Positions 33,445 to 45,524 of a DNA stretch of 64,000 nt are shown here, one piece after another. The DNA lies in sequence record OR896822.1; one strand, 5' to 3'. The stretch is from Salmonella phage vB_SenS-3. The notes below the pieces were generated by a model that saw only the letters and a list, made by a program, of their open reading frames with translations, was not told where the DNA came from and did not search any database. Position 1 is the stretch's first letter; every line of letters begins with the position of its first letter. The translations under genes were made by a program, and so were the position numbers.

Positions 33445-34074
33445 TAATAGTGGGGTGCCGAAACCACTTATGTAACAACACTGCCGTCCTAGTATAATAG
33501 GTATTATTAGGGCTTCACCGCCTGAAGATGTGGGTTCGAGTCCCACGGTCGGAAAGAGTTGGATAACTGGTGCTTCTAATGGCGAAGCAATCGCAGGCAG
33601 TTGCGCACTGCCAAAACCACGCGGTAGTTGGTTCCAGGCTAACCAACCACTCTTGAAAAGTATATACTACGGTTTTGCTTGTTCAGGAAGCTTCGCATCG
33701 AAAATCGGAGGTGCGATTTTATCAGACCGCGTGGAGGACGTCTCTCCGTTAAGTGACGAAAAGTGGGACGATTCAGGTAGAGCTGGATATGGAACACCTA
33801 TACATATGCGGAGTGCGCACAAAGCATATTGCGGTGGTACTAAACGAAATTAGGAGTCATGACCTGCACAAGTTTAGTATGTCATAACCGATGTACATTC
33901 AGTACAAAAACCACTGAAGCTAAGATAGATAGTCACCTTGACTTAAACTGGAAGATATTGTCTGACGGAAGGGCTGCAGAGCTTAATCTGAGGGGGCTGA
34001 CCCTACCTACCGTCGGGTATCTTTAAGAGTTCTTACGAGAACTCTTAAAGATACCTAAACATTAAGGAATACTG

Positions 34075-40251: not shown

Positions 40252-40326
40252 GCACCTATCGTCTAATGGTTAGGACATCAGGATTTCAATCTGAGAATTG
40301 AACTCCGATTCTCCGTGGGTGTGCCA
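40252..40326 (+). tRNA. tRNA-Glu (anticodon TTC)
   Basis: acceptor GCACCTA/TGGGTGT; D-stem GTCT/GGAC; anticodon stem TCAGG/TCTGA, loop ATTTCAA; atypical T-arm; CCA encoded. Confidence 0.6.
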
Positions 40327-40335
40327 ATTAATAAT

Positions 40336-40406
40336 TGGGGTACGCATAGGTTGCTAGTGGGCCTCCAAAACCCATGAAAAGGTTTCGAATACCTTTACCC
40401 CTGCCA
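40336..40406 (+). tRNA. tRNA-Trp (anticodon CCA), atypical
   Basis: T-arm AAGGT-TTCGAAT-ACCTT perfect; acceptor 6 bp with U1/U72 mismatch; anticodon loop CTCCAAA; CCA encoded. Confidence 0.55.
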
Positions 40407-41318: not shown

Positions 41319-41431
41319 CGGCCCGCCATATTCTATGTAGGATTAAGTAAACCGGTAGCCAACCAGCTATCATTACTGATATCGAATTCAGTCACAGATA
41401 CCATTTTTCACTAACAACTGAGGAAATAGAT

Positions 41432-41620: not shown

Positions 41621-42202
41621 ATGCACGGAATATCCTTACCCATTCCAGGGTTTGAGGAGTACTTAGTAAGTTTGGATGGGTTAGTATTTAGTATCAAATC
41701 AAACAAAATACTAACCCCAATAACCAGTAATTACGGATACTTATCTATACGTCTCCATAAAAATGGTCAACAGAGAAATACCGGTGTACATAGGATTTTA
41801 GCATGTGCATTTAAGAAATTACCAAGTCTAGACTCTGAACTAGAAGTTGACCATATTAACACAGACATTACTTATTGGGGTCTTAATAACTTACAAGTGC
41901 TCACAAAAGAGCAGCATCTAGAAAAGACTTTAAAAGATAAAGGATTTAGTAAACTAAACCATGATAATTGTTGTAAGGATTGTGGTAAAGCTATTTCTTT
42001 AAAAGCTGAAAAATGTCAGGAGTGCTCTTCACATAAACCAAAAGATATCTCTATAACTAAAGAAATAATCGAGGTTACAGTAAGAGAGCTAGGCTGGTCA
42101 GGTGCAGGGAGAAAGTTAAATTATTCAGATAATGGGTTGCGTAAAAGATACACTTCTTTAGGAGGCAATCCTAAAGAACTTAAAAAGTTAAAGGTACTAT
42201 AG
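41621..42202 (+). CDS. HNH homing endonuclease (NUMOD-like N-terminus)
   Basis: 193 aa; motifs HRILACAF...VDHINTD...NNLQ; Cys-rich C-terminal region; stop codon overlaps 5' end of tRNA-Asp. Confidence 0.7.
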   Translation: MHGISLPIPGFEEYLVSLDGLVFSIKSNKILTPITSNYGYLSIRLHKNGQQRNTGVHRILACAFKKLPSLDSELEVDHINTDITYWGLNNLQVLTKEQHLEKTLKDKGFSKLNHDNCCKDCGKAISLKAEKCQECSSHKPKDISITKEIIEVTVRELGWSGAGRKLNYSDNGLRKRYTSLGGNPKELKKLKVL

Positions 42203-42267
42203 TCTAACGGTTAGGATACTCCCCTGTCACGGGAGAGGTAGGGTTTCGATTACCCTTAGTACCGCCA
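42193..42267 (+). tRNA. tRNA-Asp (anticodon GTC)
   Basis: acceptor GGTACTA/TAGTACC perfect; anticodon stem CTCCC/GGGAG, loop CTGTCAC; T-arm AGGGT-TTCGATT-ACCCT; CCA encoded. Confidence 0.85.
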
Positions 42268-42273
42268 AATTAT

Positions 42274-42350
42274 ACATCCATAGCTCAACTGGTCAGAGCT
42301 ACCGCCTCTTAAGCGGAGGGTTGAAGGTTCAAGTCCTTCTGGGAGTACCA
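42274..42350 (+). tRNA. tRNA-Lys (anticodon CTT)
   Basis: D-stem GCTC/GAGC; anticodon loop CTCTTAA; T-arm GAAGG-TTCAAGT-CCTTC; acceptor with one A-A mismatch; CCA encoded. Confidence 0.65.
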
Positions 42351-42553
42351 AACAAATAGAGTAAAGGCTACAGTAGGTGCACCCTTACGGACTGCTACAC
42401 CGGACTCTATTCATTAACAAACATTCTAGCGTGGTGGAGAGGGGACACCAGCTGTGCGAGGGTAGAAGCTTGTTCGATTCAAGTGAAAGAATGGTTCTCG
42501 TAAATCCGCAGCAGTGATAGTAGGTTCAAGTCCTACCTAGATTGACTTATTAT

Positions 42554-42627
42554 GCGTTCGTAGTTAAAAGGTATAATTTTTGGTTGCCAACCAGAAGTTG
42601 AGGGTTCGATTCCCTCCGACCGCACCA
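42554..42627 (+). tRNA. tRNA-Gly (anticodon GCC)
   Basis: T-arm GAGGG-TTCGATT-CCCTC; acceptor GCGTTCG/CGACCGC (one mismatch); anticodon stem TTTGG/CCAGA, loop TTGCCAA; CCA encoded. Confidence 0.65.
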
Positions 42628-42878
42628 AATTTAGGTTTCTGCTTCCTAGAGAACGGACTCCTAGATAAACAAGGCGATGAGTTTCCGGCCGGTTCTAGTC
42701 GCTGAAAATCCTCCCGACCAGGTAGGTGTAGGTAAACGAAAGTTTACTTATTGAGTAGGTTCCGATAGATCGGCGGATCTATTCTGGCATTTAAGAGAAG
42801 TCTCGCAAACTTCTTTGTCAGCAGAGCGTTTGAAGCGTGAGGTGGCCTACACAATAAGTAAATTTATTAAAAACTCAT

Positions 42879-42907
42879 TTGCTATTTCACTTAATTCTCT
42901 TTATAAT
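42879..42907 (+). promoter_or_regulatory. sigma70-type promoter heading a tRNA transcription unit
   Basis: -35 TTGCTA, 17 bp, -10 TATAAT; tRNA-Pro begins about 33 nt downstream. Confidence 0.6.
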
Positions 42908-42939
42908 ATATCTTATAAAGTGAGTTAACAAAGAATATT

Positions 42940-43846: not shown

Positions 43847-44108
43847 ATTTATATAAATTGATGAGGAGAAATCCTCATCAAAGTTCACTAAGGTATTAGC
43901 TCGACCTAGGGCTGGCTGCCAAAAAGCACAATTGCAATTAGACCCCTAATGGCGGGGGATACTTTGCAATAAGTTCTAGATTAGTCCACTAGATTCAGTG
44001 GCAACTGAATAGTGTATCGGGTTTGTGAAGAGCGGTTATCCTCTACTGGCTAATGTCTGAGGGTAATACGCACACCGAGCTAATAGCCTTAGTAAACTTA
44101 AAGATTTT

Positions 44109-45199: not shown

Positions 45200-45524
45200 A
45201 ATCTTGAAGTATGCCGGAATCGGTAGACGGGGCTTCCTAAAGGGCGTAAGGGGAACATCCACTCCTCATAAGATACCCGAAAACGAGGCTGAGATAACTG
45301 GTCTATCTCGTGAAGGTTCGAGTCCTTCTGCTTCTTGATATTCATCAATGGCTCAAAGTGTAACGGTGCTATTTGATGCTCTTAGTAAGACTTTCCCGAC
45401 ATGCGTTCGGGAGTAAGCTGCTAAGGCTAGAGTAGAAGAGTTTCGGAGAGCCGCCACAATTGAAGTCTTTAGAATGGGTATCGCCCTTTAGCCCCTCCGA
45501 AAGGGATAACTAGAGATTTCAATT

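What the first reader, a model, noticed from the sequence alone, without database searches (positions are those of the whole stretch)
42351..42553. 200 nt tRNA-cluster segment with tRNA-like pieces that do not assemble into a cloverleaf
Between tRNA-Lys and tRNA-Gly there is a perfect 7-bp helix (ATAGAGT at 42356-42362 with ACTCTAT at 42404-42410) enclosing 41 nt, a canonical T-arm GTAGG-TTCAAGT-CCTAC at 42520-42536 with no matching acceptor strand, and a second TTCGATT T-loop-like motif. These may be small stable RNAs, tRNA remnants or minihelix-like processing substrates. The 10-mer AATCCGCAGC at 42502-42511 is noted only as a curiosity.
Basis: seen in the sequence. Interest (0 to 1): 0.45.

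Follow-up and report, generated by a model that had tools for sequence, protein, structure and literature searches.

The report
Two tRNA-like RNAs in phage tRNA array
The gap between two tRNA genes of this T5-like phage holds the already annotated but functionally unexplained tRNA-like "RNA2" of phages T5/BF23, plus a short conserved hairpin RNA that no searched database annotates although three phage families share it.

Summary
The sequence features are real, but "pieces that do not assemble" is wrong for most of the interval. The window is a T5-like Salmonella phage.

Module B (42422-42545) is the ortholog of T5/BF23 "RNA2", which the BF23 record annotates as "tRNA-like RNA with unknown functions". 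It folds into a tRNA frame:
- an acceptor helix, 42422-29 with 42537-44 (7 of 8 pairs here, 8 of 8 in most relatives);

Across 18 distinct homologs, 97.7% of cells pair and 13 pairs carry compensatory changes.

It closes a 41-nt core and sits in a "tRNA slot" just after a CCA end. It matches 360 phage records from Demerecviridae, Ackermannviridae and Schitoviridae, with six compensated pairs in the closing helix. Rfam does not hold it, and no sampled GenBank record annotates it as RNA.

Both are most likely cut from the polycistronic tRNA precursor as non-decoding small RNAs. Their function is unknown. Module B is already known; module A appears undescribed. Interest is moderate.

The parts
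42354..42412 (+). Module A: a 59-nt helix-closed conserved RNA element. It starts 4-5 nt after the CCA end of tRNA-Lys(CUU).
   Evidence: Covariance model R2 scores 65.9 bits here. One copy per genome occurs in 360 phage records. Rfam gives no match.
42355..42362 (+). Module A closing helix, 5' strand AATAGAGT.
   Evidence: 8-nt perfect inverted repeat I3. Six of the 10 model pairs show compensatory changes across 15 sequences.
42404..42411 (+). Module A closing helix, 3' strand ACTCTATT.
42367..42383 (+). Module A conserved core GCTACAGTAGGTGCACC, which includes the 8-nt palindrome GGTGCACC at 42376-83.
   Evidence: Near-invariant across three phage families. Other lineages have GTGCGCAC, and L087 has GTGCGCGCAC, so the segment stays palindromic.
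42388..42402 (+). Module A inner hairpin: CGG (42388-90) pairs with CCG (42400-02). The loop ends in a second GCTACA at 42394-99.
   Evidence: There is one compensatory event, L076 CCG/CGG. Kuttervirus extends the helix with a G-U pair and L087 extends it to 5 bp. The loop bases before GCTACA vary freely.
42422..42545 (+). Module B: the ortholog of T5/BF23 RNA2, a 124-nt tRNA-like RNA.
   Evidence: 85.7% identity to BF23 rna2 over its full length and 84% to T5 rna2. Annotated in AY692264 and NC_042564. Model R1 scores 140 bits.
42422..42429 (+). Module B acceptor-type helix, 5' strand CATTCTAG. It is invariant in all homologs.
42432..42450 (+). Module B D arm: TGGTG / CACCA stem with the G-rich loop GAGAGGGGA.
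   Evidence: Three of 5 pairs are compensated and 100% of cells pair.
42452..42463 (+). Module B extended anticodon-like stem, 5' strand, with GA bulged at 42458-59.
   Evidence: Four of 10 pairs are compensated and 96.7% of cells pair.
42468..42484 (+). Module B inner T-loop hairpin GCTTG-TTCGATT-CAAGT.
   Evidence: Four of 5 pairs are compensated and 100% of cells pair in the model-guided alignment.
42485..42503 (+). Module B conserved junction strand GAAAGAATGG TTCT CGTAA. Pairing of TTCT with AGAA (42464-67) is possible here but is not supported in divergent homologs.
   Evidence: Helix 4 shows no compensation, and its mismatches fall in the divergent homologs. The AA.GG and CTCGTAA columns are invariant.
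42504..42514 (+). Module B extended stem, 3' strand, with A bulged at 42510.
42520..42536 (+). Module B T arm GTAGG-TTCAAGT-CCTAC.
   Evidence: Two of 5 pairs are compensated. It matches the T-arm pattern scan.
42537..42544 (+). Module B acceptor-type helix, 3' strand CTAGATTG, with one T-T mismatch against 42424. It is followed by A42545 and no CCA.

Best explanation
The interval holds two separate non-coding RNA genes. Both lie on the tRNA strand, inside a polycistronic tRNA transcription unit of a T5-like phage.

Module B (42422-42545) is the ortholog of T5/BF23 RNA2. It keeps the parts of a tRNA that the processing and modification machinery reads:
- an acceptor helix stacked on a canonical UUCRA T arm;
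- a D arm with a G-rich loop;
- a 5-nt variable region.

Its anticodon arm is replaced by an irregular helix of about 10 bp. The tip of that helix carries a second T-loop hairpin and conserved G-rich strands, so the RNA cannot decode.

Module A (42354-42412) is a 59-nt element closed by an 8-bp helix. It occupies a 'tRNA slot' immediately after a CCA end.

Shown here: homology, synteny, conserved base-paired structure, absence of an ORF, and absence of an internal promoter or terminator.

Inferred: both are excised from the precursor like tRNAs, with RNase P cutting at the 5' edge of the terminal helix and endo/exonucleases trimming the 3' side. CCA addition to module B is possible. Both would then persist as small stable RNAs that act as tRNA or minihelix mimics, binding factors that recognise the acceptor/T-arm/elbow rather than taking part in translation. 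The actual biological role is unknown.
For: Origin and annotation:
- The window is 99.9% identical to T5-like Salmonella phages.
- T5 (AY692264) and BF23 (NC_042564) annotate the homologous 125 nt as misc_RNA rna2, described as 'tRNA-like RNA with unknown functions'. The synteny matches: rna2, tRNA-Gly(GCC), RNAIV, promoter P13a, tRNA-Pro.

Module B structure:
- 96.6% of cells pair, with 10 compensated pairs, on the MAFFT alignment.
- 97.7% pair, with 13 compensated pairs, on the model-guided alignment. Slid controls give 30-43%.
- The R1 model's only other hits, among those checked against tRNA coordinates, coincide with genuine tRNAs at 10-28 bits.
- Relaxed ARAGORN reads 42423-42544 as a tRNA with a 43-nt 'intron'.
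- Two T-arm hairpins occur where 0.75 per 64 kb are expected.
- The SIY1lw homolog ends in GCCA, like the neighbouring tRNAs.

Module A:
- One copy per genome in subsets of Demerecviridae, Ackermannviridae and Schitoviridae, on the tRNA strand wherever tRNAs were scanned. In most copies it starts 1-5 nt after a CCA end.
- The closing helix has 6 compensated pairs.

Coding and transcription signals:
- There is no credible ORF.
- There is no promoter or terminator inside the interval. The next + strand promoter is at 42879-42907.
Against: - There is no expression or processing data for this phage. In the T5/BF23 records RNA2 is labelled 'tRNA-like', not 'stable RNA', so even there its accumulation may be a prediction.
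- Neither module encodes CCA here, although most neighbouring tRNAs do.
- Module B has C8 instead of U8 and a T-T mismatch in its acceptor helix in this phage.
- Single-sequence folding energies are not better than shuffles (z = 0.49 for the interval, -0.62 for module B, -1.3 for module A).
- The interior fold of module A is unresolved.
- Helix 'e' of module B is unsupported.
- Compensated changes come from few independent lineages.
Confidence: 0.75

Rival explanations
1. Both modules are decaying tRNA pseudogenes or recombination debris of a mosaic tRNA cluster, with no function of their own.
For: - No encoded CCA, and an acceptor mismatch in this phage.
- Module A is absent from T5 and BF23, and SIY1lw carries a different 80-nt sequence in its place.
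- Cluster content is mosaic, with HNH endonuclease genes nearby.
- Parts of module A resemble a T arm (direct repeat D1).
Against: - 13 compensated pairs in module B and 6 in module A, against slid controls of 26-47%.
- Loops and junction strands are near-invariant across more than 400 T5-like genomes for module B.
- Module A is conserved across three phage families. Neutral debris would not keep helices while changing both strands.
Confidence: 0.12
2. Module B is a real tRNA gene interrupted by a short intron in its anticodon loop, and is spliced to a decoding tRNA.
For: ARAGORN, at 80% threshold with introns allowed, reports 'tRNA-Phe(aaa) i(36,43)' for 42423-42544.
Against: - Default ARAGORN with introns finds nothing.
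- Rfam reports no group I or II intron match even at E<=10.
- The insert of roughly 50-60 nt is far below group I intron size (established knowledge).
- The insert is itself conserved as a helix plus T-loop hairpin with covariation.
- No conserved U33 or anticodon is present, and position 8 is C.
Confidence: 0.03
3. The conserved sequences act at the DNA level, for example as homing-endonuclease target sites or palindromic protein-binding sites, and not as RNA.
For: - An HNH endonuclease ORF lies just upstream, at 41621-42202.
- Module A carries an 8-nt palindrome that stays palindromic when it changes.
- Module A has moved between unrelated phage families.
Against: - Conserved G-U pairs are strand-specific and meaningless in duplex DNA. 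Examples are the invariant G-U at alignment columns 41:90 and the G-U states in both T stems.
- In every locus where tRNAs were scanned, the elements lie on the tRNA strand in tRNA-like spacing.
- The compensatory changes preserve intramolecular helices.
Confidence: 0.05
4. The interval encodes a small protein, the 46-aa GTG ORF at 42377-42517.
For: Some GenBank records place a 'hypothetical protein' over the homologous stretch. The ORF exists.
Against: The ORF spans two modules that occur independently of each other. Module A is absent from T5, BF23 and SIY1lw. Substitutions follow base-pairing rather than codon patterns. Both T-arm hairpins lie within it.
Confidence: 0.01

Closest known systems
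Bacteriophage T5 / BF23 'RNA2' (misc_RNA rna2; AY692264 32962-33086; NC_042564 5701-5825)
   Same: Module B is its ortholog. Identity is 84-86% over the full 125 nt. The neighbours match (tRNA-Gly(GCC), RNAIV, promoter P13a, tRNA-Pro) and the helices are the same.
   Different: This phage has compensated substitutions in the D stem, the extended stem and both T stems, plus a T-T mismatch in the acceptor helix. It also has tRNA-Lys(CUU) and module A upstream, where T5 has an ORF.
Phage T4 species 1 and species 2 stable RNAs (rnaC, rnaD) at the end of the T4 tRNA cluster
   Same: Same kind of object: non-tRNA small RNAs embedded in a phage tRNA array and of unknown function. rnaC also ends in a T-arm-like hairpin.
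   Different: Not homologous. R1 gives only 11 bits on rnaC and R2 gives nothing.
Canonical tRNA (Rfam RF00005)
   Same: Acceptor helix, D arm with GG, 5-nt variable region, 5-bp T stem with a UUCRA loop, and a position in a tRNA array.
   Different: No 5-bp/7-nt anticodon arm, C8 instead of U8, no encoded CCA, 124 nt long. Not detected by Rfam or default ARAGORN.
tRNA-like domains that lack an anticodon arm (tmRNA tRNA-like domain, YrlA/Y-RNA tRNA-like module); comparison from general knowledge
   Same: An acceptor/T-arm unit is retained while the anticodon arm is replaced by another helix.
   Different: ARAGORN finds no tmRNA, and the only Rfam tmRNA matches (5.8-10.6 bits, gathering score 47) cover just the T-arm hairpins. 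There is no tag reading frame. Here the replacement helix ends in a second T-loop hairpin, which those RNAs do not have.
Acceptor/T-arm 'minihelix' substrates of RNase P and the CCA-adding enzyme (general knowledge)
   Same: In module A, the closing helix (8-10 bp) abuts the inner CGG/CCG helix (3-5 bp). That gives a stack of about 12-13 bp in a tRNA slot.
   Different: No T-loop sequence, no CCA, and a conserved 24-nt 5' strand with no counterpart in a minihelix. Cleavage is untested.

Membership tests
T5/BF23 RNA2 (tRNA-like RNA of the Tequintavirus tRNA region) | Full-length sequence homology to the annotated rna2. | tested here: met
   85.7% over 125/126 nt to BF23 rna2, 84.3% to T5, and R1 scores 140 bits.
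T5/BF23 RNA2 (tRNA-like RNA of the Tequintavirus tRNA region) | Conserved position in the tRNA region: downstream of tRNA-Asp, and upstream of tRNA-Gly(GCC), RNAIV, P13a and tRNA-Pro. | tested here: met
   The gene order in the window matches NC_042564.
T5/BF23 RNA2 (tRNA-like RNA of the Tequintavirus tRNA region) | Exists as a discrete RNA in infected cells. | not testable with these tools
   No expression data are available. The source records call it 'tRNA-like RNA with unknown functions'.
Canonical tRNA | 7-bp acceptor stem contiguous with a 5-bp T stem and a UUCRANN loop. | tested here: met
   42422-29 with 42537-44 (7 of 8 pairs) adjoins the T arm at 42520-36.
Canonical tRNA | Anticodon arm of 5 bp with a 7-nt loop and U33. 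| tested here: not met
   It is replaced by an irregular helix of about 10 bp plus a hairpin, spanning 42452-42514.
Canonical tRNA | Recognised by the standard detectors (Rfam RF00005 at gathering score, ARAGORN defaults). | tested here: not met
   Only ARAGORN at 80% threshold with an intron allowed reports it.
Canonical tRNA | Encoded 3' CCA, as in most neighbouring tRNAs of this cluster. | tested here: not met
   The sequence after 42544 is ACTTATTAT. The SIY1lw homolog does end in GCCA.
tmRNA | tRNA-like domain plus a tag-encoding reading frame, detectable by ARAGORN or Rfam. | tested here: not met
   ARAGORN -m finds 0 genes. The only Rfam tmRNA matches are 5.8 and 10.6 bits on T-arm hairpins.
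tRNA gene with a group I intron | Intron of 200 nt or more with a group I core in the anticodon loop. | tested here: not met
   The insert is roughly 50-60 nt, and Rfam reports no intron match at E<=10.
Self-cleaving ribozymes found next to phage tRNAs (HDV-like, hammerhead, twister, etc.), considered for module A | Match to a ribozyme covariance model or its conserved core. | tested here: not met
   Rfam 15 finds nothing at E<=10 on module A in the window or in Kuttervirus. Threading by hand onto the HDV-like strand order finds no P1 partner (inference).
RNase P minihelix-type substrate, considered for module A | A coaxial stack of about 12 bp with a cleavable 5' leader. | tested here: inconclusive
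   The closing helix (8-10 bp, covarying) abuts CGG/CCG (3-5 bp, one compensated event). There is no CCA, and cleavage cannot be tested here.

The most novel reading that the evidence does not exclude
Module A is a new family of structured phage RNA. It is absent from Rfam 15 and is not annotated as an RNA in any of the roughly 65 listed records, out of 360 matching phage genomes from three families. Its near-invariant core, which holds two GCUACA repeats and a palindrome that stays palindromic (GGUGCACC / GUGCGCAC / GUGCGCGCAC, a kissing-dimer type), would then have a specific function beyond being a processing spacer. Examples are a dimerising regulatory RNA or an anti-defence RNA. In parallel, RNA2's two T-loop 'elbows' might act as a decoy for elbow-recognising host factors.
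Probability: 0.2. Interest if true: 0.65.

Novelty: new member of a known kind. Interest (0 to 1): 0.38.

Why it matters
Phage tRNA clusters have become central to how phages escape tRNA-targeting bacterial defences. The non-tRNA RNAs embedded in these clusters are still unexplained, although the source records of T5, BF23 and T4 have long annotated them as stable or tRNA-like RNAs of unknown function.

This analysis gives RNA2 a covariation-supported architecture: a tRNA frame whose anticodon arm ends in a second T-loop hairpin. It also flags a 59-nt element shared by T5-like, Vi1-like and N4-like enterobacterial phages. Both are precise, easily deleted targets for small-RNA sequencing, RNase P assays and defence-system screens.

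If they prove to be only processing by-products, the result is still useful for annotation. Some GenBank records currently place 'hypothetical proteins' over them.

Tried and rejected
- Rfam 15 at gathering score and at E<=10 gave nothing but tRNAs and noise.
- ARAGORN in tRNA, intron, mitochondrial and tmRNA modes gave only the relaxed 'intron' call.
- Folding the whole 203 nt as one RNA gave a z-score of 0.49, so it is not one structure.
- Literature searches found no paper on T5 RNA2 or on module A in the searchable library.
- A metagenome scan for the module A 17-mer gave mostly chance hits. L038/L059 lie inside a zinc-knuckle ORF and L069 is uncertain. L058, L073 and L076 are true homologs.
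- A GTDB genome scan gave 20 hits, none with a closing helix, which fits chance.
- Searching E. coli genomes for a homolog or antisense target of module A found no match.
- Module A interior pairings:
  - CAGU:ACUG is rejected because its 3' partner varies freely.
  - GG:CC is broken in L076 and in LIMEstone1.
  - The T-arm-like GUAGG/CUUAC pairs in 83% of cells with no compensation.
  - GUAG:CUAC is invariant and so uninformative.
- Module B helix 'e' (AGAA/TTCT) and the alternative CATTCT/AGAATG pairing are not conserved in SIY1lw or My1.
- No close paralog of module B exists among the window's 29 tRNAs.
- T4 rnaC and rnaD are not homologs.

Full report
**Context.** The window is a T5-like phage of the Demerecviridae. 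A 1-kb stretch around the finding is 99.9% identical to Salmonella phages such as vB_SenS-3, gmork and RA40 (99.8% to S113), and it matches 429 phage records. ARAGORN finds 28 tRNA genes on the + strand between 33.4 and 47.5 kb. The finding is the 203-nt gap between tRNA-Lys(CUU), at 42274-42350, and tRNA-Gly(GCC), at 42554-42627. Rfam at gathering score finds only tRNAs in the window. At E<=10 it reports nothing meaningful in 42351-42553.

**Checking the observation.**
- The stated helix is present and is really 8 bp: AATAGAGT at 42355-62 pairs with ACTCTATT at 42404-11, with 41 nt between.
- The T arm GTAGG-TTCAAGT-CCTAC lies at 42520-36.
- TTCGATT (42473-79) is the loop of its own 5-bp hairpin, GCTTG/CAAGT, at 42468-84.
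Its three matches in the window (at up to one mismatch) are at chance level.
- A perfect 7-bp inverted repeat occurs in 37% of shuffles of the interval, so that helix alone means little.
- T-arm-type hairpins are expected 0.75 times per 64-kb strand. The window has 27, of which 23 lie in called tRNAs and two in this interval.
- The claim that the T arm has no acceptor partner is wrong. CATTCTAG (42422-29) pairs with CTAGATTG (42537-44) at 7 of 8 positions. Most relatives carry CTAGAATG, which gives 8 of 8.

**The interval is two modules.** BLAST of the 203 nt shows two pieces with different distributions. Bases 62/72 to 196/203 (module B) occur in essentially all T5-like phages. Bases 8 to 58/74 (module A) occur in only some T5-likes, but also in 157-kb Kuttervirus genomes.

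**Module B is T5/BF23 RNA2.**
- The T5 st0 record AY692264 annotates six misc_RNAs in its tRNA region. One of them, 'rna2' (125 nt), aligns to 42420-42546 at 84% identity.
- The BF23 tRNA-region record NC_042564 labels the same gene 'RNA2; tRNA-like RNA with unknown functions'. Its gene order matches the window: rna2, tRNA-Gly(GCC), RNAIV, promoter P13a, tRNA-Pro, tRNA-fMet.
- BF23 rna2 aligns to 42422-42547 at 85.7% identity.
- A sigma-70-type promoter, TTGCTA-17-TATAAT, at 42879-42907 sits where P13a does. No promoter or terminator lies inside the interval.

**Structure of module B.** I collected 22 homologs, 18 of them distinct. They include the divergent SIY1lw and Pectobacterium My1-type sequences. 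They support this fold:
- an acceptor-type helix of 8 bp;
- a 2-nt linker (C-G, not U8);
- a 5-bp D stem with a GG-rich loop;
- one unpaired base;
- a long irregular stem of 4 bp, a bulged A, 2 bp, a bulged GA and 4 bp (42452-63 with 42504-14);
- a junction;
- the inner T-loop hairpin (42468-84);
- a conserved strand GAAAGAAUGG..CUCGUAA;
- a 5-nt variable region, UGAUA;
- the T arm, followed by the acceptor 3' strand.

On the MAFFT alignment, 96.6% of cells pair and 10 pairs have changes on both sides. On the model-guided alignment, 97.7% pair and 13 pairs are compensated: 3 in the D stem, 4 in the long stem, 4 in the inner hairpin and 2 in the T stem. Sliding the partners by 1-3 columns drops pairing to 30-43%.

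The acceptor helix never covaries. Its 5' strand is invariant and its 3' strand tolerates mismatches. The short helix AGAA/UUCU next to the inner hairpin is not supported in the divergent sequences.

A covariance model of this structure (R1) finds exactly one copy in each T5-like locus searched. It finds none in the Ackermannviridae, N4-like or T4 loci. Its weaker hits that were checked against tRNA coordinates coincide with genuine tRNAs, matched end to end with the insert deleted. That shows the outer frame is tRNA-like. ARAGORN reports 42423-42544 only at an 80% threshold with introns allowed, as 'tRNA-Phe(aaa)' with a 43-nt intron. I do not accept that reading, for these reasons:
- the 'intron' is itself conserved structure;
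- there is no conserved U33 or anticodon;
- Rfam finds no intron;
- an insert of roughly 50-60 nt is far too small for a group I intron.

The element has no encoded CCA here. The SIY1lw homolog does end in GCCA, like the neighbouring tRNAs. No window tRNA is a close paralog; the best partial resemblance is the D arm of tRNA-Leu(UAA).

**Module A.** Exact-word and gapped-pattern scans, a covariance model (R2) and BLAST recover this element in 360 phage records. The carriers are:
- a subset of T5-likes, including a 122-kb contig the size of the Pectobacterium phage My1 genome;
- Ackermannviridae: Kuttervirus, relatives of Klebsiella phage 0507-KN2-1 and Shigella phage Ag3, and Dickeya Limestonevirus;
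- N4-like Schitoviridae: FSL SP-058 and UTK0001.

It is absent from the T5 and BF23 tRNA regions.

In every locus where tRNAs were scanned, the element lies in a tRNA cluster on the tRNA strand. In most copies it starts 1-5 nt after a CCA end and is followed within a few bases by the next tRNA or tRNA-like element. The one probable homolog without nearby tRNAs is the high-GC contig L087.

The closing helix changes sequence between lineages while staying paired: AAUAGAGU/ACUCUAUU, ACAGAGU/ACUCUGU, UUUAAAGAGU/ACUCUUUAAA, UCAGAGUG/CACUCUGA and UUUAGAGUGU/ACACUCUAAA. Six of its 10 pairs show compensated changes.

The 41-nt interior is nearly invariant. It reads GGCUACAGUAG, then a palindrome, CC, 3-4 variable bases, CGG, 3-4 variable bases, GCUACA and CCGG. 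Only one interior helix has covariation. CGG (42388-90) pairs with CCG (42400-02). It becomes CCG/CGG in L076, gains a G-U pair in Kuttervirus, and is 5 bp in L087.

This helix abuts the closing helix, giving a stack of about 12-13 bp. That is the length of a tRNA acceptor/T-arm stack. I rank the comparison as suggestive only.

Competing interior pairings were counted, and none is supported. The palindrome GGUGCACC becomes GUGCGCAC or GUGCGCGCAC in other lineages and stays self-complementary. That pattern could mean RNA dimerisation or a DNA-level site. I could not test either.

Module A is not in Rfam, whether searched in the window or in Kuttervirus. It has no E. coli counterpart or antisense target of about 20 nt or more. 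In the listed GenBank records it carries no annotation, a flank-overlapping tRNA-Lys, or a spurious 'hypothetical protein'.

**Coding potential.** The only ORF is a 46-codon GTG frame at 42377-42517. It spans both modules, which occur independently of each other, so it is not credible.

**Mechanism.**

Shown:
- two conserved, base-paired, non-coding elements;
- both on the tRNA strand;
- both inside a promoter-to-promoter tRNA transcription unit;
- both spaced like tRNAs.

Inferred from established tRNA biology:
- RNase P recognises the acceptor/T-arm stack and the T-loop/D-loop elbow;
- E. coli matures polycistronic tRNA precursors with RNase P, RNase E and 3' exonucleases;
- CCA-less phage tRNAs are repaired by the CCA-adding enzyme.

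On this basis both elements are most likely released as discrete small RNAs. Module B keeps every feature needed for that and none needed for decoding. Module A may be a minimal version of the same idea.

What they do afterwards is unknown. A tRNA-mimic role, engaging proteins that read the acceptor/T-arm/elbow, is my preferred guess. The second T-loop hairpin and the adjacent conserved GG strands of module B fit a second 'elbow'.

**Comparison and novelty.** The kind of object is already on record. The GenBank records of T4 (species 1 and 2 RNAs) and of T5/BF23 (RNAs I, III, IV, 1, 2, 2H, 3 and X) annotate such RNAs in their tRNA clusters. Module B is simply the ortholog of one of them, so it is already known, although I found no published structure or function. 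T4 rnaC and rnaD are analogues, not homologs. Module A appears undescribed in the sources I could search, and it is the more novel part. Overall this is a new member of a known kind, of moderate interest.

Noticed in passing
window 42628-42939: The next gap, between tRNA-Gly and tRNA-Pro, is also non-coding structured RNA. It holds a homolog of T5/BF23 RNAIV ('stable RNA with unknown functions') at 42755-42853, closed by a 20-nt inverted repeat (42740-59 with 42846-65). A conserved stretch of about 110 nt at 42628-42739 is unannotated and is also present in SIY1lw. The P13a-like promoter follows at 42879-42907.
   Followed up: partly
window 33446-34059, 41331-41403, 43894-44028, 45203-45456: Homologs of the other BF23 misc_RNAs are present: rnaX, rna3, rna2H, rna1 and rnaI. 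The ARAGORN 'tRNA-SeC(tca)' call at 33482-33555 lies inside the rnaX homolog, so it may not be a genuine selenocysteine tRNA. The T-arm-like hairpin at 45312-28 belongs to the rna1 homolog.
   Followed up: partly
window 40252-40323 and 40379-40395: Rfam calls a tRNA at 40252-40323 (35 bits) that ARAGORN does not. A further T-arm-like hairpin at 40379-95 lies in no called tRNA. These may be more tRNA-like pseudo-tRNAs.
   Followed up: no
L027 2886-3141; L116 about 290-545: In the Kuttervirus and Limestonevirus tRNA clusters, module A is flanked by two other non-tRNA elements closed by acceptor-like helices. Examples are GGGUGU...ACACCC-A-CCA and UACCGC...GCGGUA-G-ACCA. Most of these end in NCCA like tRNAs. 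Rfam finds nothing there.
   Followed up: partly
L026 1420-1630 (Salmonella phage SIY1lw): Here the RNA2 homolog ends in GCCA. A different 80-nt sequence occupies the place of module A. An endonuclease-like ORF is inserted just downstream of RNA2.
   Followed up: no
L010 5870-6000: In this T5-like genome the RNA2 homolog is followed directly by ACCAAACAATT and a Met-type tRNA start. Evidently a deletion has removed tRNA-Gly, RNAIV and tRNA-Pro, which illustrates how mosaic the cluster is.
   Followed up: no
window 41621-42202: A 193-aa HNH-type homing endonuclease ORF ends 10 nt inside tRNA-Asp (42193-42267). This ORF/tRNA overlap is also seen in the T5 annotation.
   Followed up: no
L087 5634-5715 (high-GC viral contig, no tRNAs in 13 kb): A probable distant module A homolog lies outside any tRNA cluster. 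It has a different closing helix (GAGGGA/TCCCTC), a 5-bp inner helix and a 10-nt palindrome, GUGCGCGCAC.
   Followed up: partly
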